Origin: a virus
DNA: 64,000 nucleotides
IMG/VR virus record: IMGVR_UViG_3300043466_003163
Span: 24,590-88,589 of that record
Strand: one strand, 5' to 3'
In this document: positions 15,313 through 60,143 of the stretch, in pieces
Layout of the letters: each line of letters begins with the position of its first letter
Numbering within the stretch: the stretch's first letter is position 1
Translations under genes and position numbers: made by a program
Notes under the pieces: generated by a model
What the model saw: the letters and a program-made list of their open reading frames with translations, nothing else
What the model was told of the DNA's origin: nothing
The model's database searches: none

Positions 15313-16578
15313 TTATGAGATTCTTCTCATTAAATCTTTAATAGCTGTAATTTGAGGATCAACATATGCAGTAGATTCATTCAAATTAGTAGTCTTATAA
15401 GATTTTACTGTTTTATTAACTTTATTTTCTACAGACTCATTAATTGGTTTTGTATTCTCTAATTCAGTTTTAATTGTCTTATAGATATTTTTAGATTCTT
15501 TAATTGTTTCCGCATTGTCGAATCTTTTTAAGATATCCATTTTTTCTTTCTTAGTAGTAGAATGTTCAGTAAACAATCTATTAACGTAAGCTAAATTAGT
15601 ATTGAATAAAGCAACTTCATTAAGTTTGTCTTTGAATACGTTAAGTGCTTTTTTATACTCTTCGTTTTTATTTTTCAGCTCTTCGTATTCCTTCATTATT
15701 TTTGATTCGGAAACTGTGTTTTTGTTAGGTTTTTTAGAAATTAACGGTTTACGAACACTTCTAGATTCTCTAGCAGCAAGTCTAGCGCCATGATATCTTT
15801 GTTTACCACCAGATCTTCTGTGTCTTTGTAACTTGTCTTCTTCTAGTCTAGGTTCTTCATCTTCGCCACCTTCACCATCTTCATCGACAATTGTTTCATA
15901 CATAGATGAAAGTTCGTCTAATTGAATTTCGTAAATGGTTTCTTCGCTGTCTTCGTACATAGAACCTGAACCACATTCAGAGCAATACTCATCTTCTTCT
16001 AAACCGAATCTATCCATAGATTCCTTAATGTAATACTCTACACCTGTTTCGCGATCTGTCAAATGAATTCCTTTTTCATCTTTAACAACTTCTACTTCGT
16101 CATTATCACCTAATTTGTTTTTAAATACGTGAATAACTTCTTCGTCAGAAGCATCTGTTAAGTCTAAAACTTCTTCCCCTCCTGGTTCCTCAAAACCAAA
16201 ATCAAATTCTTCAGGTTCTTCTTCACCTTCTTCTGAATCTAAATCTAAATCAACATCTAAATCTAAATCAACAGGTTCTTCTTCACCTTCTTCAGAATCT
16301 AATTCAGATGGTTCTTCTTCACCTTCTGGAGATTCAGTCTCTTCTTCATCGTCAAGATCTAACTCAACATCTTCTTCATCATCATTGGATCCTTCTAAAT
16401 CTATATCGTCTATTTCTACTTCTTCATCTTCCTCTTTTAAAGATGACTCAACGATACTTTCAATTTCTTTCGACAAGTGTGCCGCAAGCATTTCTTTCGT
16501 GTTGGCTTTTAAGGCATCCTCTAAAGACTTAGCTTCTAGCAAAGCCTCTTCGATGATAGATTTCTTTTTTTCAGCCAT
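15313..16578 (-). CDS. Prohead scaffolding/core protein (gp22-like)
   Basis: Acidic and coiled-coil, LNEVALFNTNL; between protease and capsid genes. Confidence 0.8.
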   Translation of the reverse strand: MAEKKKSIIEEALLEAKSLEDALKANTKEMLAAHLSKEIESIVESSLKEEDEEVEIDDIDLEGSNDDEEDVELDLDDEEETESPEGEEEPSELDSEEGEEEPVDLDLDVDLDLDSEEGEEEPEEFDFGFEEPGGEEVLDLTDASDEEVIHVFKNKLGDNDEVEVVKDEKGIHLTDRETGVEYYIKESMDRFGLEEDEYCSECGSGSMYEDSEETIYEIQLDELSSMYETIVDEDGEGGEDEEPRLEEDKLQRHRRSGGKQRYHGARLAARESRSVRKPLISKKPNKNTVSESKIMKEYEELKNKNEEYKKALNVFKDKLNEVALFNTNLAYVNRLFTEHSTTKKEKMDILKRFDNAETIKESKNIYKTIKTELENTKPINESVENKVNKTVKSYKTTNLNESTAYVDPQITAIKDLMRRIS

Positions 16579-16676
16579 TTTGTTTCTTTTTTAGTTTTTA
16601 TTATTTTATTATTACATTTACGCTAAAATGCGTTTCCTAATAAATATGTAGTTTTTTTGAAAAAGATTAATTTTTT

Positions 16677-17412: not shown

Positions 17413-17850
17413 TTATTTTTTAGTTTTATAGAATTTAAAAATAGAATTATTTTCAAAACAGTTATTTACTACATCGTAAATAATTGTTTTTGTGTGGTCA
17501 ATTATGTTTGGTTGATTTAATGATAAATTTTTCTTTTGATAAAGTGTTATCTCACAAGACATAAAACTTCTTTTATTAATATCAAAACCTGAAGTTCTCA
17601 TATCTAAATCCACTATGTATCTATCACTATAGAAATAATCTTTATTTAGAGTATTATTTAATTTTTGTTTTATTTTTTTTCTGATATTACTTAAAAAAAT
17701 ATCATAATTATTTTCTTCCCCATCATTTATTATCTGTCCCCACGCAGTAAAGTTTATATACAAACTTTTTGATTCTTTATTGTTTACTGTACCAATTTTT
17801 GTTTTATAGTTGTCTAATAAATCTAATTTGATTTCTTTTCCTAATTTCAT
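17413..17850 (-). CDS. Hypothetical protein within the head module
   Basis: 145-aa ORF; own TAAATTTG motif at 17899-17906. Confidence 0.65.
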   Translation of the reverse strand: MKLGKEIKLDLLDNYKTKIGTVNNKESKSLYINFTAWGQIINDGEENNYDIFLSNIRKKIKQKLNNTLNKDYFYSDRYIVDLDMRTSGFDINKRSFMSCEITLYQKKNLSLNQPNIIDHTKTIIYDVVNNCFENNSIFKFYKTKK

Positions 17851-17932
17851 TAAAATTTTCTTTCATATTATGTTATTTAAAGTTTACATATAATAATACA
17901 AATTTATTCGTGAAATGTCAAATTATGGTAAT

Positions 17933-17956
17933 AAAAAACCCTCACTAAGAGGGTTT
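17933..17956 (-). terminator. Intrinsic terminator
   Basis: AAACCCTC-ACTAA-GAGGGTTT hairpin. Confidence 0.7.
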
Positions 17957-17959
17957 ATA

Positions 17960-18739
17960 TTAATCATTTGTGATTGTTTGTTTTAAATTATAAAACTTAA
18001 TTATGTCATCACTAAAATTATCTTTTTGATATTTAGTATTTAATAGTTTATCTTTAACTTTAAGTAACTTATCTTTTAAATCTAAATCAGATGACTCATT
18101 CAATTTAGAATCTACTGTAATTACACAATCTCTTTTTAATTTATTGTATATATCTTCTTTTTCACTATCACTACCATTTAAAATTGAGTGTATGATTTTT
18201 TTATCTGATTCATTAATATCACTATATTTGCTATTAAACTTATTTACAAATAATTTAGTTAAAACACTAGGTGGTACATTAATAGTTTCATGATTAATTT
18301 CTTCTGTAAAGATTTCATTTTTTGTAGTCATAAATTCTATTAATTTATTAGTTGCCTCATTTATTTGATTTATATTTGAAGGTGTTTTTTTAGTACTACC
18401 TAAATAAGATATATTTTTATAAAATTCATTATTTTCTTTAACAATTTTTTTACCCTTTAAAAGTTTTAATAAAGAATTGTTAGATTCATTAATTTTATTT
18501 TTATCAATAGATTTAAGTAGCTCAATATTTTCATTTAAATATTCTTTCGCCTCAAATTTATCGTCAAATTTTTTAGTCTCTAAATTCTTATATATTAAGA
18601 ATTGATCTCTAATAGTTTTATTTTCTTTTAATGTTTTTAAATACTTTCCAAATAATTTTTTACCTGATGAATCTTTTTTAATTACTGATTCAATAATTAT
18701 TTTTTTAAAAGTATCCTTTATATTACCAAAATTTTCCAT
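17960..18739 (-). CDS. Probable prohead core protein (positional gp67/68 equivalent)
   Basis: Follows portal; many [ILV]xE sites (IIES, LKEN, LNEN, INES x2, INEA, LNES). Confidence 0.55.
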   Translation of the reverse strand: MENFGNIKDTFKKIIIESVIKKDSSGKKLFGKYLKTLKENKTIRDQFLIYKNLETKKFDDKFEAKEYLNENIELLKSIDKNKINESNNSLLKLLKGKKIVKENNEFYKNISYLGSTKKTPSNINQINEATNKLIEFMTTKNEIFTEEINHETINVPPSVLTKLFVNKFNSKYSDINESDKKIIHSILNGSDSEKEDIYNKLKRDCVITVDSKLNESSDLDLKDKLLKVKDKLLNTKYQKDNFSDDIIKFYNLKQTITND

Positions 18740-20740: not shown

Positions 20741-22531
20741 TTATTTAATACCAAATAACCAATTATATTCTCCATTATTGTTATTGTCGTGAGGTTGTTT
20801 TGGGTGATAAGATGGTGTATTAACATAAAATGGATTAACATATCCTTCTTTCATCATAGGTTTTGACGGTGTAGTAGACATATTCACCCAACTCTCTAAC
20901 ATAGCCTTAGTTTGTTTTTCAACTTGTTCTAATTTTTTAAAAGATGTTTGTATTATAAAAATACACATCGCATATGCCATAATTATATCATCATGATATC
21001 CTTCCATATGATCTGGTCTACCATTTTTATATACAAATGTTCTTAACTCAGATATCATCCTTTGGGAACGTATTATAGTTTTATTTTCTCTAATATGTTC
21101 TTCTAATTCCGAAACCATTTGTAATCTGGTGTTACCCACATTAAACCCAGGAACTTTATCACCCTCTTTATATTTTGTTTTTGCATATTTCTCACTCAAT
21201 TTTCTACTTTTTGGGTCATCATAATGTAAAAATTTATAATCCATTTCCATTAATTTTAGTACCGTTGATACTCCCATACCACCAGTAATATCTATAACTG
21301 TATAGGCATTATACATATTACCGTACTTATATACTATTTCCGCCAATATATCAGGTGGTAGTTTATATTTAAATTCTGCAACTTGTTCTAAATTTTCAAA
21401 GTCTAATATTACTATTGTAGAACTATCTTTTCCATCACCTCTACTAACGTCTACACCCATAATATATTTATGACCAACTTCAGGTTCTTTCCAAATCCAC
21501 ATAGACTTTTCAATCTCTGACGCAAAATTAGGGTCAGTAACATAATTTTCTTCATGATATGTAATATATTCATCATCTATTACGTTACCTCCTGAACCAA
21601 TAAAAGATACATCTAATTCTTGTGCAATCTTTTTAGCATCACCCATATCTGCTGCCATCTCTTCATACCAAGGGGATAGAGGTTTCCAACCATCTTTTAT
21701 CATCACCTCATAGTATTCTATCGTAGATTCGTCAGTTTCATAAATTTTATCGAGATATTCCCACCTTAATCTAGTTCTGTCTAATGTTTTACAAAGTAAT
21801 TTTTCATCGTCACCTCTTTTCCAATATAAATTTCTATTATATCTTACATCTTGATACCACTTCATCTCAACAATGTTGAAATTGTTTTCTTTTTTCTTTG
21901 CCCCATCATACGTTTTATAATATAAAGGATCCATACCATTTGGTGTAGAAATTAAAGATATCTTACCACCCGTACCTAATGATGCTAAAGCCGCCCCAAA
22001 AACTTCTGAACCATTATCGATAAACGCCGCCTCGTCCATTACTAAGAATGTTGGTGTAAAACCCCTCAATGCATCTTTTGAAGTTGCTAAGGCTCTTATT
22101 TCACATCCATTTGATTTTAATTTTAAATGACCTTTAGAATTTATTTCTAAATAATCTGTGCCTTCATCTAACCCCCAAACCCAATAAGGAATTTGATCTA
22201 AGAAATCTTTAATTTTTTTAAGAAATTCTTGTGCTAATGTTTGTTTGTTGGCTAATATCAAAACTTTATGTGGATTATCAGGATCACCAAAAGCAGTTTT
22301 AACTGCAATATATGCGGCAGTTGTTGTAGATACACCCGCCTGTCGAGGTTTAGTAACTAAATTACGATTATACTTTTCATACGATTTAATAATTTCTTTT
22401 TGTTTATAAAATAACTTAAATGGTACATTACCTCCTTGAGTTAAATCGAATGTTTTTAAAAAAGTTTCTATCGCATAAATTGGATCACCTAAACATCGAG
22501 CATATGTCTTTAATTGTTCTGCTCTTTCCAT
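20741..22531 (-). CDS. Terminase large subunit (T4 gp17-like)
   Basis: KPRQAGVST, MDEAAFI, ISTPNG, GVDVSRGDGKDSS, HDDIIMA. Confidence 0.96.
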   Translation of the reverse strand: MERAEQLKTYARCLGDPIYAIETFLKTFDLTQGGNVPFKLFYKQKEIIKSYEKYNRNLVTKPRQAGVSTTTAAYIAVKTAFGDPDNPHKVLILANKQTLAQEFLKKIKDFLDQIPYWVWGLDEGTDYLEINSKGHLKLKSNGCEIRALATSKDALRGFTPTFLVMDEAAFIDNGSEVFGAALASLGTGGKISLISTPNGMDPLYYKTYDGAKKKENNFNIVEMKWYQDVRYNRNLYWKRGDDEKLLCKTLDRTRLRWEYLDKIYETDESTIEYYEVMIKDGWKPLSPWYEEMAADMGDAKKIAQELDVSFIGSGGNVIDDEYITYHEENYVTDPNFASEIEKSMWIWKEPEVGHKYIMGVDVSRGDGKDSSTIVILDFENLEQVAEFKYKLPPDILAEIVYKYGNMYNAYTVIDITGGMGVSTVLKLMEMDYKFLHYDDPKSRKLSEKYAKTKYKEGDKVPGFNVGNTRLQMVSELEEHIRENKTIIRSQRMISELRTFVYKNGRPDHMEGYHDDIIMAYAMCIFIIQTSFKKLEQVEKQTKAMLESWVNMSTTPSKPMMKEGYVNPFYVNTPSYHPKQPHDNNNNGEYNWLFGIK

Positions 22532-24526: not shown

Positions 24527-25951
24527 TTACATAAATTTGTGTAATTTTTCTACTAATTCAAAATCACCTTTATCTAAAGCGTCATCTATTAATTTTTCTA
24601 TTTCACGTTTACTCATTTTAGAATAATCAACCTCTTCGTCTTCTTTTTCTTCAGTTTCAGGTTCATCACCTAAATGATTTAATATATCATCCATATCATC
24701 ATATCCTGTATCGTCAAACATATCAGATAAACTATCATTTTTATCTTGATTATGTAAATCTTTTAAGGTTTGAATTACTTCTTTACATTTTTGACTTCCC
24801 GATAAAATTTCTTTCATAAAATCATGAAATTGTTGTGCGGGTAGTTTAGTTAATTCTCTAAACAACCATTGTTTAATATCGTAATTTTCATTACCTACAC
24901 AATCTAAGAATTTTTCCCACATACCTGGTCCTAATCTCATACCCCAAATCTCCCCTTCATCTGTATCAGCCTTAGAGATTACTTCCTTTTGTTCATCAAA
25001 GTCCAAATGTCCGTCAGCCCAATTAATTGCGGATAATTCTAAAGTACCTTTAATTAATTCATGAACTAAAAGAGGGAAAATCCAAGCTTTAGCTACTACA
25101 ACTGGCATATCATCACCTTCTTCTAAGTTAATGTCTTCCATATCTTCTTCTTCATCTTTATTTTCTGGTTTTTCAGCCTTTCTCCATTCTATCTTTTCAA
25201 CACCACCAACTTGTCCAGTCATTATAGAATCAGGAATTATCCAGTATTGGAAATCTGCTAATGACATTAATTTACCATATAGAACCATTAATCTGGGATC
25301 CAATGCGTCTAATTCATCTGCCACCATATGAAATATATAATGTCCTTTTTTAGCTGCTCCTTGCATTAATGCATTTATAACTCTCCTTTTGTCAACCTCT
25401 AATTCTAATTCTTCCATTCTTTTAGCACTTTTAGGTTGTTTAGGTGTTTCAAAGTCAGAACCATAATCTTGATCGTCTTCCTCTTCTTCATCAGATTCAT
25501 GACTTAATTCTGAACCAGGAGGTGTTAAAGTAGCCTCTAACATTTGTTCAGGGATATCGAACTCTTCTGATACTATATCTACCGCCAATCTTTCTAATGC
25601 TTCTTTATGTCTAGTTTCTATTTGACTTATTTCACCCATTATTTGAAACATTAATTGCATCATATTAGGAGTTATGGTATTTATACCGTGATATCTTTTA
25701 ACTTTGTTAACAATTTCTTTAAATCTTTGTCCTGCTAATTTTTCAGAATAATTTTGTGTTCCAGAACCTGCGGGTATAGATTTACTACCACCAAAAATAT
25801 GTTCTCCACTTCTTAATTTACCTTCTAAACCTGGATGCATTCTTTCTGGATGTTCAGGATCATATTCTACGGCTTCACTTATTCTTTTAATTCTAACTTT
25901 TTCTGAAAGAACTCTCTTAGTTACTTCACTAATTATATTTTTTCTTTTCAT
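24527..25951 (-). CDS. Head-associated hypothetical protein with C-terminal IDEAL/UVR-like helix
   Basis: Leader with ISE/LSE sites; LVHELIKG; IDDALDKGDFE. Confidence 0.6.
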   Translation of the reverse strand: MKRKNIISEVTKRVLSEKVRIKRISEAVEYDPEHPERMHPGLEGKLRSGEHIFGGSKSIPAGSGTQNYSEKLAGQRFKEIVNKVKRYHGINTITPNMMQLMFQIMGEISQIETRHKEALERLAVDIVSEEFDIPEQMLEATLTPPGSELSHESDEEEEDDQDYGSDFETPKQPKSAKRMEELELEVDKRRVINALMQGAAKKGHYIFHMVADELDALDPRLMVLYGKLMSLADFQYWIIPDSIMTGQVGGVEKIEWRKAEKPENKDEEEDMEDINLEEGDDMPVVVAKAWIFPLLVHELIKGTLELSAINWADGHLDFDEQKEVISKADTDEGEIWGMRLGPGMWEKFLDCVGNENYDIKQWLFRELTKLPAQQFHDFMKEILSGSQKCKEVIQTLKDLHNQDKNDSLSDMFDDTGYDDMDDILNHLGDEPETEEKEDEEVDYSKMSKREIEKLIDDALDKGDFELVEKLHKFM

Positions 25952-34951: not shown

Positions 34952-37432
34952 ATGAAAAAAGTCTTACCTAAAGTTAAAAAAGTGATTAATATGTCACTAA
35001 AACAGGCAAAAATGTATGGAGATACGGAAGTTCGTATTGAACATATAATAATATCATTAATAAATGACTATAATAATAACGCAATACGAGTTTTAAATGA
35101 TTTAGGTGTAGATGTCGATAATTTACATAAAAAAATAGAGATTTCTCTTTTAAAAGAAAAAAAAGAAGAGTTAGTTATTGCTCAGAGCGGTGATTTACCT
35201 TTAGAATATGTATCAGAAAAAATTTTAAAAGGTGCGGAAAAGGAATGTGATGAATTAAATGATGATTTTTTGGATACTCACCACATATTATTATCCACAT
35301 TAAAAATAAAAAATAATGTTAATAGTATTTTAAAAACTATGAAAATAAATTATAATATAGTAAAAAAACATATGGAAAAAAATATAATACAAAATAGTAT
35401 TGATCCTATAGATAGTGAAGATGATAACTTCTTTAAAGATAATAAAAAAAGTAATAAAAAAAGTAATAAATCTAATGAAACCCCTATTTTAGATAACTTC
35501 TCAATTGACGTTACTAAAAGAGCATCTGAAGGTAAAATTGATCCTGTTATAGGTAGAGATGAATCAATACAAAGAGTAGCTCAGATATTAGCGAGAAAAA
35601 AGAAAAATAATCCTGTTTTGATTGGTGATCCTGGTGTTGGTAAAACGACAATTGTTGAAGGTTTGGCATTAAAAATATTTCAGGGGGACGCACCTAGAAC
35701 TCTTTTAGATAAAAGAATTTTATCATTAGATATAACTTCATTAGTTGCTGGTACAAAATATAGAGGTCAATTTGAAGAAAGAATTAAAGGTATTGTTGAC
35801 GAACTTATGAATGTGGATAATGTAATTTTATTTATAGATGAATTACATACAATTGTTGGTGCAGGAAACGCATCAGGTTCTATAGATGCTGCCAATGTAT
35901 TAAAACCAGCCTTAGCGAGAGGTGATATACAAGTTATTGGGGCAACAACTTTAGATGAATTTAGAGAAAATATAGAAAAAGATGGTGCATTAGCTAGAAG
36001 ATTTCAACAAGTTTTGATTAATCCCCCTTCAGTTGAGGACACAATTAAAATTTTAAATAAGATAAAAATATCGTATGAAAATTATCATAAAGTTTTTTAT
36101 CCACAAGAAACTATAGAACAATGTGTAAAAATGGCTGATAGGTATATTACCGATAGGGAATTTCCTGATAAGGCAATAGATATTTTAGATGAGGTAGGTT
36201 CTAGAACTCAGGTTAATGCTAAACCACCAAAAGGTATAAGTACCTTAGAAGAAAAAATTAATGAGATTAAAGAAAGAAAAAGTAATGTCGTTAAAAAACA
36301 AAAATATGAAGAAGCTGCTAAACTAAGAGATGAAGAAAGAAACATCAACGAAAAACTGGAAGTAGAAAAAGAAAAATGGTTAGAAACTATTAATAAAGAA
36401 AGAAAAAAGATAACTCCTGAGGATGTTAATGAAGTTGTTTCTATTATGACAGGTATACCATTAAAAAGACTTAGTGGGGATCAAGGTAAACGAATGTTGG
36501 AGATGGAAAATGAATTAATGAAACATATTATTGGACAGGAAAATGCGTTAGAAAAAATAGCTAAATCTCTTAGAAGAAATAGGGTAGGTATTAGAAATCC
36601 AAAAAAACCAATAGGTTCTTTTATGTTTTTGGGTCCTACAGGTGTTGGTAAAACTCATATTGCTAAAAAATTGGCAGAATATATGTTTGGAGAAGAAGAC
36701 TCTTTGATTAGATTGGATATGTCAGAATTTCAAGAAAAACATTCTATTTCTAGATTAATTGGTTCTCCTCCTGGTTATGTCGGTCATGAAGATGGGGGTC
36801 AATTAACAGAAAAAGTTAGAAGAAAACCTTATTCTATCGTATTATTCGATGAAATTGAGAAAGCAAATAAAGAAATATATAATACATTATTACAATTATT
36901 AGATGATGGACAATTAACTGACAGTTCAGGTAGAAAAGTAAACTTCAAAAATTGTATGGTAATTATGACATCAAATGTAGGAGTTAAAAAATTACAAGAT
37001 TTTGGTACAGGAGTTGGTTTCGGAACTAAATCAAAAATAGAAAGAGAAGAGTCAGTAAAAGAAGGTATGTTACTCGATGAACTTAAAAAACAATTCCCAC
37101 CAGAATTTTTAAATAGATTAGATGACGTAATTATATTTAAATCTTTAACCAAAGATCAGATAGGTAAAATTGTAGATTTAGAAATATCTAAATTAGAAGA
37201 TAGAGTTTTAGAAATTGGGTATACATTACAAATAAATAAAACCGCAAAAGATTATTTAGTTGATCAGGGGTATGATGAAGAATATGGGGCAAGACCTTTA
37301 AATAGATCAATTCAAAAATATATTGAGGATCCCGTTTCAGAAGAAATTTTGAGCGGTAGAGTTAAAGAAGGTCAAACTATTAAGGTAAGTTACTCCAAAC
37401 CTAAAGAAGAAATAATTGTTAAAATTTGTTAA
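34952..37432 (+). CDS. clpC: ClpC/ClpB-family AAA+ chaperone
   Basis: Clp-N domain, [11 protein letters not shown]-like middle ([11 protein letters not shown]), [23 protein letters not shown]. Confidence 0.92.
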
Positions 37433-47831: not shown

Positions 47832-47855
47832 AATTTATAAATATAAAAATTTTCA

Positions 47856-52161: not shown

Positions 52162-52314
52162 ATGATAGTAGAATCTTTTAGAAACCTTAATGGTACGGAC
52201 AGAAAAGTAATTAAGTTTGCTTTGTTTCCTTTATTTGTAAATGGTAAATTTGTTTGGTTAAAACGTGTGGTTATCCATCAAGACTTTATTGATGGTGAAT
52301 GGGTAGATTTATAA
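52162..52314 (+). CDS. Small protein (50 aa, not in ORF track) behind host-type promoter
   Basis: MIVESFRN...FALFP...VWLK; TATATTTG at 52135-52142. Confidence 0.6.
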   Translation: MIVESFRNLNGTDRKVIKFALFPLFVNGKFVWLKRVVIHQDFIDGEWVDL

Positions 52315-52331
52315 TTAACTATTAAAATATT

Positions 52332-52415
52332 GAAAACCCATCATGGTAGCGAACCTGATGGGTTTATTTTTTGTCCGTAGACAACAACGGTCCTAATCCG
52401 TTTTATCTTTAATTT
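52332..52415 (-). ncRNA. Candidate late small RNA with three hairpins
   Basis: Late motif at 52421-52427, no ORF; hairpins with loops AUUAGGA, cUACGg and UCGCU. Confidence 0.55.
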
Positions 52416-52462
52416 TATATATAAATATTTACTTTAATCAAAAATATGATTAGATTTTTTAA

Positions 52463-52864
52463 ATGGAAGAAAAAAGTATATTAAACTGGGATTTACATCA
52501 AAAATTAATTGAGGGGAGATTTGGTAAAAGAAAAATAACTAAAATTATAGAAACAAATATCTATTCTAAATACGAAAAAGAATATTTAGAAAATAATAAA
52601 AGAATATTTTATGTTAACTCTATTGATATATTATCTGATGATACCGTAGTTTTAGAATGTTATTATCAAGATAGAAAAAAATATTATTTATCTGACAAAT
52701 TTGTTTTATACAATGATTACCCACTAAACGATAGGAATATCGTCAATAAAAAATGTGAAATTTTTTGGGTGATTAAATCATTTCGAGAATATATTCTTAA
52801 CGAAGAAAATCGTTTATATAAACATAAAATTATTTTAGAAGATTTAATTAGAAGTTTCCTTTAA
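52463..52864 (+). CDS. Hypothetical protein
   Basis: 133-aa ORF. Confidence 0.6.
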   Translation: MEEKSILNWDLHQKLIEGRFGKRKITKIIETNIYSKYEKEYLENNKRIFYVNSIDILSDDTVVLECYYQDRKKYYLSDKFVLYNDYPLNDRNIVNKKCEIFWVIKSFREYILNEENRLYKHKIILEDLIRSFL

Positions 52865-55790: not shown

Positions 55791-55814
55791 ATATAATAAA
55801 TATATATAAAATTA

Positions 55815-57550: not shown

Positions 57551-58579
57551 TTAGTCAATAACGATAGCTCTTAACGAGTTAGATGTTAATGAATCTGATT
57601 TTATGTAAATTAGTTTATTTTCATGTCTCTTTAAGAAATTATCTAAAGTATCATTATAGGTTGACATAAGATATTGTTTACCATCAATTATCATATTAAC
57701 TGCCAAAGTATAATGAATTTCAGTTTTGGTTCTAACCATTTGATGTCCGCATTCAGGACAAAACTTCCAAGATGATTTTTTAATCTTTGTTGTACATTTT
57801 GGACACCTCTCAACTAAATCTTTCTTTTCAAATGGTTTTTGTGATTCTGGTAAAATTTTCCAAACTGATGTTGATACTGACCAAACATTAAAGTTTTTAT
57901 TTACAGTTTTAAATGTTTGATCACTTGAAGACCCTTTTTCCACTCTACCTGTTTCAACTGATTTAGATTTTTTTACAAAACTTCTACTTCTTGGTTTTTG
58001 GTCATATTTCGACTCAAACTTATTTGATCTTACATTGTTACTGAAACTTAGTGTACCACTATTATTAGAAGTAAAAGTAACGTCCGTAGGTCGATAAGTG
58101 TAATCAATATTTGAGGTGTATAAATTGTTTCCAATTACATCATTAGTTGATGTAAGGTGATCAATACCACCAGTGGTAATAGTACCATAATTTTGATTCC
58201 ATTTAATGTTATTTAATAAGTCAATAATTGGATCTTCTTCCTCATAAAATACAACCTCAACGTCTCCATTGTTTGCAATTGCATTCATTGTTTCATTTGT
58301 CGAATCTACAGTATAAGTCTCAAACTTAAATTTGTTAGGGACATCGATGTACCTCTCAAGAAATATTCTTTCTCCTGGTCTTAGTACAATTCCTCCTCCA
58401 TTAATAAATTCTCCGTTTATTTTGATTTTTGATAAGACGGTTTTTCTTGATGGGTTATAAAGTTCTATCTCAAACTCCGATCCGTCTTTTAGATAAACAT
58501 TCTGTCCGAATTGTTTAATTCTTTGTTTGTTTTTTGTGATATACGCACATGGGTTATCACTGTTTACATTGTAATTCAT
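57551..58579 (-). CDS. Beta-sandwich-type protein with C-terminal zinc ribbon
   Basis: EFEIELYNP, LRPGERIFLERY; CPKC...CPECG. Confidence 0.7.
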   Translation of the reverse strand: MNYNVNSDNPCAYITKNKQRIKQFGQNVYLKDGSEFEIELYNPSRKTVLSKIKINGEFINGGGIVLRPGERIFLERYIDVPNKFKFETYTVDSTNETMNAIANNGDVEVVFYEEEDPIIDLLNNIKWNQNYGTITTGGIDHLTSTNDVIGNNLYTSNIDYTYRPTDVTFTSNNSGTLSFSNNVRSNKFESKYDQKPRSRSFVKKSKSVETGRVEKGSSSDQTFKTVNKNFNVWSVSTSVWKILPESQKPFEKKDLVERCPKCTTKIKKSSWKFCPECGHQMVRTKTEIHYTLAVNMIIDGKQYLMSTYNDTLDNFLKRHENKLIYIKSDSLTSNSLRAIVID

Positions 58580-58597
58580 TTTTCCTTATTTTTATTT

Positions 58598-58680
58598 TTT
58601 GTTATTATTGGAGATCGATTCGTTGGTAGTTATCCAACTCAAATGTTATTTAAACACTCGAACCCCATCAACAAGGTTTC
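58598..58680 (-). promoter_or_regulatory. Structured ~100-nt 5' UTR (three-way junction)
   Basis: Long closing stem plus GUGUU/AACAU and GUUGG/CCAAC hairpins after late motif 58685-58691. Confidence 0.5.
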
Positions 58681-58727
58681 AATTATAAATATAAGGTATT
58701 TTTATTTTATTGTAAATAGTTAAATAT

Positions 58728-60066: not shown

Positions 60067-60143
60067 ATCTAAATATAAATACCAGAATATTTAAAAAACA
60101 AATATATAAAAAATATTTTAACCCATCAAAGTATTTATTTAAT

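What the first reader, a model, noticed from the sequence alone, without database searches (positions are those of the whole stretch)
52332..52427. Candidate late small RNA with a cUACGg tetraloop
Seen on the - strand: a late motif (52421-52427) with no ORF behind it, then AACGG-AUUAGGA-CCGUU (52386-52402), UUGUC-UACG-GACAA (52371-52384) and AAACCCAUCA-GGU-UCGCU-ACC-A-UGAUGGGUUU (52334-52365). Established: cUNCGg is an extra-stable tetraloop, and it reads correctly only on this strand. Inference: a standalone ~85-nt RNA with exposed AUUAGGA and UCGCU loops, possibly a protein sponge, packaging RNA or regulator. I recognise no named family.
Basis: partly seen in the sequence, partly recalled or inferred. 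Interest (0 to 1): 0.7.

Follow-up and report, generated by a model that had tools for sequence, protein, structure and literature searches.

The report
Conserved late small RNA of jumbo phages
The three hairpins are real and belong to a previously uncatalogued, single-copy structured small RNA, found in about a hundred uncultured aquatic T4-like phage sequences, that is made late in infection; its job is still unknown.

Summary
On the minus strand, a late-type promoter box ATATTTATA (52428-52420) is followed by three hairpins (52402-52334) and a U tract.

The element is not chance and not just a terminator:
- Pattern scans and a covariance model found about 100 distinct copies in IMG/VR and metagenome contigs, including TARA Oceans and ENA marine contigs.
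- There is one strong copy per phage record, including a complete 380-kb record.
- None was found in 185,579 prokaryote species genomes, in cultured phages or in Rfam 15.
- 17 of 24 base pairs show compensatory changes.
- G-U pairs, the U tail and a UACG-to-UUCG loop swap all put the RNA on the window's minus strand.
- The three loops (AUUAGGR, UNCG, UCGCU) are nearly invariant between phages whose terminases are only 44% identical.

In about 90% of copies the RNA lies 0-40 nt behind a co-oriented late gene, beside the terminase or portal genes, with no promoter box. Where no such gene exists, as here, a late box lies 15-47 nt upstream.

My best reading is a stable, about 80-nt, late, trans-acting RNA whose loops bind a partner. 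The function is unproven. The scan noted the same RNA once before, on another genome.

The parts
52420..52428 (-). Late-type promoter box ATATTTATA. The predicted transcription start is about 6-8 nt downstream, near 52413.
   Evidence: the box is orientation-specific and precedes 24 of 30 non-coding occurrences' genes, including terminase and portal. It is conserved in the syntenic relatives L020-L022 and L039.
52403..52413 (-). Predicted short A-rich 5' leader of the RNA.
   Evidence: Inferred from the box-to-ATG spacing of 5-30 nt elsewhere in the window. In L181 the box lies only 15 nt before hairpin 1.
52386..52402 (-). Hairpin 1: 5-bp stem with the 7-nt loop AUUAGGA. It is the most conserved part of the RNA.
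   Evidence: The loop is AUUAGGR in 65 of 67 distinct sequences. One pair covaries (G-C to A-U in 6 sequences). A scan that left the stem free found no other stem variants.
52371..52384 (-). Hairpin 2: 5-bp stem closed by a c(UACG)g UNCG tetraloop.
   Evidence: 5 of 6 pairs show compensatory change. The loop is UUCG in L088, and the stem is fully swapped around UACG in L090.
52366..52370 (-). A/U-rich single-stranded linker.
   Evidence: variable in length (3-7 nt) and in sequence.
52334..52365 (-). Hairpin 3. The outer 10-bp stem is terminator-like. The conserved apical module is GGU-UCGCU-ACC plus an unpaired A (52355-52344).
   Evidence: 11 of 13 pairs show compensatory change. The outer stem is entirely replaced in L088 while the apical AGU-UCGCU-ACU module is kept.
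52324..52336 (-). U tract (UUUU CAAUA UUUU). It is weaker here than the U5-U7 tracts of relatives.
52162..52314 (+). Convergent 50-aa ORF. On the plus strand, hairpin 3 followed by TTTATTTTTT would also terminate it, so the terminator is probably bidirectional.
   Evidence: (weak phrog_11031 match). Relatives have 93-102-aa opposite-strand ORFs ending 2-7 nt from the hairpin.
52463..52864 (+). Divergent 133-aa ORF (P0001) on the other side of the promoter box.
   Evidence: Opposite-strand ORFs of 128-157 aa occupy the same place in relatives.

Best explanation
This is a gene for a single-copy, phage-specific, structured small RNA of about 80 nt. It is read on the window's minus strand, from its own late-type promoter box (ATATTTATA, 52428-52420) to an intrinsic terminator formed by the outer stem of hairpin 3.

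It belongs to a family of about 100 known loci in uncultured aquatic T4-like phages, some with records of 224-380 kb. In most relatives the same RNA is the last 70-80 nt of a late mRNA in the terminase-portal module. So it is always made with the late genes, either as a 3'-UTR-borne RNA or, as here, as its own transcription unit.

Inferred working: the RNA acts in trans as a stable molecule.
- Hairpin 2, with its UNCG tetraloop, and the outer stem of hairpin 3 give stability and the 3' end.
- Hairpin 1, with its near-invariant stem and AUUAGGR loop (a U-turn-type YUNR loop presenting AGGA), is a sequence-specific recognition surface for a protein or RNA partner.
- The apical UCGCU module of hairpin 3, flanked by unpaired A's, is a second such surface.

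Shown: structure, strand, conservation, copy number and the promoter/ORF dichotomy. Inferred: late transcription, release as a discrete RNA, action in trans, and the nature of the partner.
For: Structure:
- 94.8% of cells are paired, 17 of 24 pairs have compensatory changes, and 0 of 500 shuffles reach the observed values. Slid controls give 31-58% pairing.

Strand:
- 21 G-U against 6 A-C cells. Inside hairpin 3 the count is 14 against 0.
- A U5-U7 tail follows hairpin 3 on this strand in nearly all members.
- The tetraloop is UACG or UUCG.

More than a terminator:
- Loops 1, 2 and 3 stayed invariant even in scans that did not fix them.
- The RNA is near-identical between phages whose TerL proteins share 44% identity.
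- Syntenic flanks are 67-83% identical, against about 100% for the element.

Copy number:
- One strong hit in each of five records of 149-380 kb and in the window's own record.

Trans rather than cis:
- Where no co-oriented gene lies upstream, a late box does (10 of 11 contexts against 1 of 90). This covers at least three different surroundings: the window group, L042 and L181.
- In the window group the nearest neighbours on both sides are on the other strand.
- At the junction where relatives carry the RNA, the window has a plain terminator instead. So the terminator function is replaceable, yet the RNA is kept elsewhere in the genome.
Against: - There is no expression data of any kind, so the 5' end, processing and stability are all inferred.
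- The window's U tract is short (U4, interrupted) and the plus-strand side has the better T run. Here hairpin 3 may therefore serve mainly the convergent plus-strand ORF.
- The standalone contexts are mostly one lineage with shared synteny, so the 10-of-11 count is not ten independent events.
- In about 90% of members the RNA sits 0-40 nt behind a stop codon, which also fits a cis 3'-end element.
- No partner protein or target was identified. The complement of loop 1 is not enriched in the window.
- The pattern scans required parts of the sequence, so some of the invariance reflects how members were found.
Confidence: 0.55

Rival explanations
1. It is a cis-acting 3'-end module of late mRNAs: a terminator with two extra hairpins that protect the upstream message from 3' exonucleases, set termination efficiency or mark a processing site. 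The standalone copy in this window would be a relocated remnant.
For: About 90 of 104 contexts place it 0-40 nt after a co-oriented stop codon. The outer stem of hairpin 3 looks like the phage's ordinary terminators (AAACCC...GGGUUUUUU).
Against: There is only one copy per genome, although these phages have many late operons with plain terminators. The upstream gene differs between lineages (647-aa, 254-aa, 90-aa, 102-aa, 107-aa or none). The standalone copies keep a conserved late box and a perfect sequence. Sequence-invariant loops are not needed for exonuclease protection.
Confidence: 0.2
2. It is a tRNA-like decoy or cofactor. Hairpin 1 would mimic an anticodon arm (5 bp, 7-nt loop, U33, anticodon UAG, G37, as in tRNA-Leu(UAG)). 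Hairpin 2 would mimic the long variable arm of a class II tRNA. Hairpin 3 would be an acceptor/T-like minihelix (GGUUCG...). The RNA would then bind a host tRNA-targeting nuclease or a tRNA enzyme.
For: The geometry of hairpin 1 and the linker to hairpin 2 fits class II tRNA numbering, and GUUCG opens the apical loop of hairpin 3. The comparison with tRNA rules rests on established tRNA knowledge, not on a tool result.
Against: - ARAGORN and the Rfam tRNA model do not recognise it.
- The T-loop position corresponding to A58 is C, and the helix is 13 bp with a bulge.
- There is no CCA or discriminator. A closing 5'/3' stem is not supported: 63% paired, no better than slid controls.
- No prokaryote genome carries these two arms in a tRNA gene.
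- The complete 380-kb relative has 7 tRNAs but no tRNA-Leu, and its tRNA-Ser variable arm is unrelated.
- Loop length varies (6 or 8 nt) in two members.
Confidence: 0.1
3. It is a GGA-motif protein sponge or Shine-Dalgarno mimic. Loop 1 (UAGGA) and two ACGGA words would bind a CsrA/RsmA-type protein, or the 16S rRNA 3' end.
For: There are three GGA words within 30 nt of a 27% GC genome, one of them in a hairpin loop. The AGGA is presented after a YUNR turn.
Against: Two of the three GGA words are inside stems. Known CsrA sponges carry many loop GGAs (from memory). The phage's own genes mostly lack Shine-Dalgarno sequences. The host and its CsrA status are unknown.
Confidence: 0.05
4. It is a DNA-level element, such as a recombination, replication or packaging signal, or a mobile cassette like the T4 promoter-early stem-loops, rather than an RNA.
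For: It occupies three different genomic positions in related phages and often sits next to a conserved promoter.
Against: Compensatory changes keep the pairing rather than the sequence. The G-U/A-C asymmetry, the UNCG loops and the one-sided U tail are RNA features. It is always co-oriented with the flanking late genes. It is single-copy, unlike repeated cassettes.
Confidence: 0.04
5. It is only a bidirectional terminator between convergent genes, with two chance hairpins beside it.
For: Hairpin 3 followed by a T run terminates the plus-strand 50-aa ORF as well.
Against: Hairpins 1 and 2 and all the loops are conserved and covary in about 100 loci with unrelated flanks.
Confidence: 0.02

Closest known systems
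3'-UTR-derived and terminator-ended bacterial small RNAs (for example the enterobacterial CpxQ/SroC type; from memory)
   Same: A short RNA that ends in an intrinsic terminator, with an A/U-rich linker before the terminator hairpin. It is made either from its own promoter or as the tail of an mRNA.
   Different: This one is phage-encoded and late. Its conserved parts are hairpin loops and a whole hairpin, not a single-stranded seed. No sequence relation exists, no target is known, and processing has not been shown.
Bacteriophage T4 stable RNAs C and D (species 1 and 2 RNAs; from memory)
   Same: Small stable non-coding RNAs of unknown function, with some tRNA-like traits, encoded by a T4-type phage.
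   Different: The T4 RNAs lie in the tRNA cluster, are matured like tRNAs, and are longer (about 120-140 nt). In the complete relative this RNA is about 170 kb away from the tRNA cluster, is late, and ends at a terminator.
phi29 packaging RNA (pRNA)
   Same: A small structured phage RNA. In about three quarters of family members the gene lies inside the terminase-portal module.
   Different: pRNA multimerises through complementary loops. The three loops here (AUUAGGA, UACG, UCGCU) are not complementary to each other. There is no sequence or structural match, and T4-type motors are not known to need RNA. In this window the gene is 30 kb from the terminase gene.
Class II tRNA (tRNA-Leu UAG): anticodon arm plus variable arm
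   Same: A 5-bp stem with a 7-nt loop carrying U at loop position 2 and G after the 'anticodon'. It is followed at once by a short UNCG-capped hairpin.
   Different: It is not recognised by tRNA models. It has no D arm, no acceptor stem at the ends, no CCA and a non-canonical T-like loop. No tRNA gene with these arms was found.
Rfam 15 families
   Same: None: the best E-value is above 1 for every family.
   Different: There is no match at gathering thresholds across the whole window.

Membership tests
Any Rfam 15 family | Covariance-model score at or above the family's gathering score | tested here: not met
   0 matches in the window; the best score is 16.8 bits against a threshold of 80, and every E-value is above 1.
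Intrinsic (rho-independent) terminator | G+C-rich stem followed directly by a U run on the transcribed strand | tested here: met
   Hairpin 3 has CCC/GGG pairs followed by U5-U7 in nearly all members. The window has only UUUU, then CAAUAUUUU. The simple scanner missed it because of the inner hairpin.
UNCG tetraloop hairpin | A C-G closing pair around UNCG, kept as UNCG when it varies | tested here: met
   c(UACG)g in 63 of 67 distinct sequences. c(UUCG)g in L088. u(UACG)a in L090. One member has CUCG.
tRNA / tRNA-like structure | Recognised as a cloverleaf by tRNA finders or models | tested here: not met
   ARAGORN found none. The Rfam tRNA model is not among the hits at E up to 10.
tRNA / tRNA-like structure | Closing acceptor-type helix between the 5' and 3' ends | tested here: not met
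   63% paired, against 55-80% in the slid controls.
tRNA / tRNA-like structure | Anticodon-arm geometry: 5-bp stem, 7-nt loop, U33, purine 37 | tested here: met
   Two members have 6- or 8-nt loops.
tRNA / tRNA-like structure | Derived from a host or phage tRNA gene with the same arms | tested here: not met
   only 7 chance coding hits in 185,579 species genomes; the complete relative has no tRNA-Leu, and its tRNA-Ser arms are unrelated.
T4-type mobile promoter/stem-loop cassettes (PeSL; from memory) | Many dispersed copies per genome | tested here: not met
   One strong copy per record of 149-380 kb and one in the window's own record.
Hfq-type sRNA 3' module | A/U-rich single strand, terminator hairpin and long U tail, bound by host Hfq | not testable with these tools
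   The sequence features are present. The host, and whether it has Hfq, are unknown.
CsrA/RsmA-sequestering RNA | Several GGA motifs exposed in hairpin loops | tested here: inconclusive
   One loop GGA (UAGGA), plus two GGA words buried in stems.
phi29-type packaging RNA | Complementary loops that allow ring formation | tested here: not met
   By inspection of the invariant loops there is no complementarity between them.

The most novel reading that the evidence does not exclude
The RNA is a minimal tRNA mimic: an anticodon-arm look-alike of tRNA-Leu(UAG), a class II variable-arm look-alike and a T-like capped helix. These phages would make it late to occupy or divert a host tRNA-directed enzyme, for example an anticodon nuclease used in defence or a G37-type modification enzyme. 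That would make it an RNA-based counter-defence or translation-control device. A second untested lead from gene position is a role in head assembly or packaging, because most members lie between the terminase and portal-proximal genes.
Probability: 0.1. Interest if true: 0.85.

Novelty: new variant of a known kind. Interest (0 to 1): 0.62.

Why it matters
Small RNAs of lytic phages are barely charted, and none is known for this large group of uncultured aquatic T4-like phages (records up to 380 kb).

- This RNA is better conserved than the terminase protein.
- It is kept as one copy per genome.
- It is re-equipped with its own late promoter whenever it loses its upstream gene.

Together these point to a function that matters late in infection. 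The family now has a covariance model, about 100 members and clear mutational targets (three invariant loops), so the question of what it binds can be tested directly.

It also gives independent support to the reversed late promoter box (ATATTTAT) of these phages, because here the box drives a non-coding gene.

Tried and rejected
- **Rfam:** gathering and permissive scans gave nothing.
- **tRNA finders:** ARAGORN found nothing in the window or in 27 loci.
- **Cultured phages (INPHARED):** blastn with the 2-kb region and with the 85-nt element gave no match. The capsid protein is below 45% identical to any cultured phage; the nearest are Rhodothermus, Flavobacterium and Microcystis phages, so no host can be named.
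- **Relatives through P0001:** only a 25-residue motif inside unrelated longer ORFs, not syntenic.
- **Relatives through the 261-aa neighbour:** none.
- **RNA sequencing runs:** no RNA holder was listed.
- **Prokaryote genome scans:** 0 hits for the element and 7 chance coding hits for hairpins 1+2.
- **Scan with the hairpin-1 stem left free:** only 4 new loci, all rejected by the model. L086 and L089 from earlier scans are also chance hits in coding DNA.
- **Cloverleaf-type closing helix:** rejected.
- **Base-pairing target for loop 1:** its complement is not enriched in the window.
- **Small peptide:** the only ATG in the RNA lies in hairpin 3 and is not conserved.
- **Riboswitch or attenuator:** rejected, because a promoter separates the element from the downstream gene in both main contexts.
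- **Literature:** word and sequence-string searches found no description of this motif. This shows only that the held library does not mention it.

Full report
**What the window is.** The window is part of an 88.6-kb IMG/VR virus record. It has 27% G+C and carries T4-type capsid, portal and large-terminase genes. Its capsid protein is less than 45% identical to that of any cultured phage. Close relatives are metagenomic contigs of up to 380 kb.

**The observation.**
- The 91-nt stretch folds into the three named hairpins at -26.9 kcal/mol, z = -4.5.
- The plus strand folds nearly as well, so folding alone does not choose a strand.
- The 'late motif' is real. In non-coding DNA of the window the sense-strand word ATATTTAT occurs 30 times, and 24 of these lie within 40 nt of a co-oriented ATG. 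These include the terminase and portal genes. Only 5 of 30 do so in the opposite orientation.
- The site at 52428-52420 has the same extended form as the proven-looking sites, and no minus-strand ORF follows it.
- The two nearest ORFs, 52162-52314 and 52463-52864, are on the plus strand.

**Relatives.**
- Three syntenic contigs were found through the 199-aa neighbour. They are 67-83% identical to the window in the flanking genes but essentially 100% identical from the promoter box to the end of hairpin 3.
- Four pattern scans of IMG/VR, each fixing a different part of the element, and one metagenome scan gave about 100 distinct loci with unrelated flanks. They include TARA Oceans scaffolds and an ENA marine-metagenome contig.
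- A covariance model (R1) scores 97 of them at 58-105 bits. The window scores 87.9 bits, and its next-best hits are ordinary terminators.
- Nothing was found in one genome each of 185,579 prokaryote species, in 50,697 cultured-phage records or in Rfam 15.

**Structure and strand.** The counts below come from 67 distinct sequences.
- 94.8% of pair cells are standard pairs and 17 of 24 pairs show compensatory changes. No shuffle reaches the observed values, and slid controls pair at 31-58%.
- Hairpin 3's outer stem is completely exchanged in L088 (GGGG/CCCC for CCCAC/GUGGG), while its apical AGU-UCGCU-ACU module is kept.
- Hairpin 2's stem is exchanged in L090 around an unchanged UACG, and its loop becomes UUCG in L088.
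- Hairpin 1 varies least: one G-C to A-U swap and loop AUUAGGA/G. A scan with its stem left free found no further variants.
- G-U cells outnumber A-C cells 21 to 6, and 14 to 0 inside hairpin 3.
- A U5-U7 run follows hairpin 3 on this strand only.
- A tRNA-style closing helix between the A-rich 5' flank and the U tail is not supported.

**Genomic behaviour.**
- There is one strong copy in each of five records of 149-380 kb, one of them rated complete, and one in the window's own record.
- In 90 of 104 distinct contexts the element starts 0-40 nt after the stop codon of a co-oriented ORF, and only one of these has a late box upstream.
- In 11 contexts there is no such ORF, and 10 of these have the box 15-47 nt upstream (Fisher p = 6e-12).
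- The boxed cases comprise the window's syntenic group plus at least two other surroundings, L042 and L181. They are therefore few independent events, but not one.
- The two main 3'-UTR contexts both lie in the packaging and head module:
  - between a 600-650-aa gene and the large terminase gene;
  - between a 254-aa gene, itself behind a late box, and a 145-aa gene next to the portal gene.
- The window has homologues of all four genes, at 24527-25951, 20741-22531, 17960-18739 and 17413-17850. Both junctions there carry plain terminators.
- At 17900-17955 the same conserved TTGACA-N17-TATTAT promoter follows that in relatives follows the RNA. So the terminator role is replaceable, yet the RNA itself has been kept elsewhere with its own promoter.

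**Interpretation.**
- The data show a single-copy, strongly constrained, structured RNA that is always placed so that late transcription runs through it.
- Three observations argue for a molecule that works on its own rather than as a cis element of one mRNA:
  - the promoter box appears when the upstream gene is absent;
  - the nearest neighbours in the window group are on the opposite strand;
  - the upstream genes differ between lineages.
- Near-invariant loops, and an almost invariant hairpin 1, point to sequence-specific recognition by a partner.
- Loop 1 has the YUNR form of anticodon and antisense-recognition loops and would present AGGA. This rests on established RNA-structure knowledge and was not tested here.
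- I found no enriched complement in the window and no candidate partner protein.
- In this window hairpin 3 probably also terminates the convergent plus-strand ORF, and its own U tract is weak.

**tRNA resemblance.** Hairpin 1 plus hairpin 2 look like the anticodon and variable arms of a class II tRNA-Leu(UAG), and hairpin 3 opens its loop with GUUCG. Every membership test I could run failed:
- tRNA finders and models do not recognise it.
- There is no closing helix.
- No tRNA gene with these arms exists in the species genomes.
- The complete relative has no tRNA-Leu, and the element there lies about 170 kb from the tRNA cluster.
It remains a mechanistic lead with low probability.

**Earlier notes of this scan.**
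- A first-reader note on another genome (e1-5364774) describes the same three hairpins behind two tandem TATTTATA boxes. L109 here shows two such boxes.
- Notes e1-6084282 and e1-6084276 proposed the reversed late box. I tested its orientation bias.

**Verdict.** It is a new family of phage small RNA. The kind of thing (a terminator-ended small RNA, 3'-UTR-borne or standalone) is known. The family, its loops and its distribution are not catalogued, and its function is open.

Noticed in passing
window 58580-58691 (-): Another late box (58691-58685) is not followed closely by an ORF. About 100 nt of leader, containing GGGGUUCGAG, precedes gene 57551-58579. The leader folds moderately well (z = -2.4). 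It may be a structured 5' UTR.
   Followed up: partly
window 16640-16646 (-): A late box lies 61 nt before the 421-aa gene 15313-16578, which sits next to the capsid gene. A small hairpin lies in between.
   Followed up: no
window 47837-47843, 55796-55802, 62884-62890 (-) and 60132-60138 (+): The late box ends only 5-6 nt before the ATG. If the box is a -10-type element, these late mRNAs would be leaderless. Most genes also lack Shine-Dalgarno sequences.
   Followed up: no
window 17900-17955 (-): A plain terminator (AAACCCTC-TTAG-TGAGGGTTTTTT) and then a textbook TTGACA-N17-TATTAT promoter sit inside the head-gene cluster, before the 145-aa gene. The same promoter is conserved in many relatives directly after the RNA.
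   Followed up: partly
window 52463-52864 (+), P0001: Residues 4-27 (SILNWDLHQKL..) match an internal segment of longer, non-syntenic ORFs at 68-81% in 17 IMG/VR contigs; an 18th locus (L019) matches residues 1-19 only. This may be a shared short domain or a gene fragment.
   Followed up: partly
relatives L024, L047, L064 etc., downstream of the RNA: Before the terminase gene the late box sits inside a small inverted repeat (CATGCC...GATATTTATTGGCATG), with the ATG 4-5 nt after the box.
   Followed up: no
G001 (complete 380-kb relative), loci L206, L217-L219: Seven tRNA genes (Glu, Asp, Ser, Met, Arg, Ala, Gly) lie at 317-351 kb, and ARAGORN calls a tmRNA at about 82.6 kb. The tmRNA call was not verified.
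   Followed up: no
window 34952-37432 (+): An 826-aa ClpB/ClpC-type double AAA+ protein is encoded by the phage.
   Followed up: no
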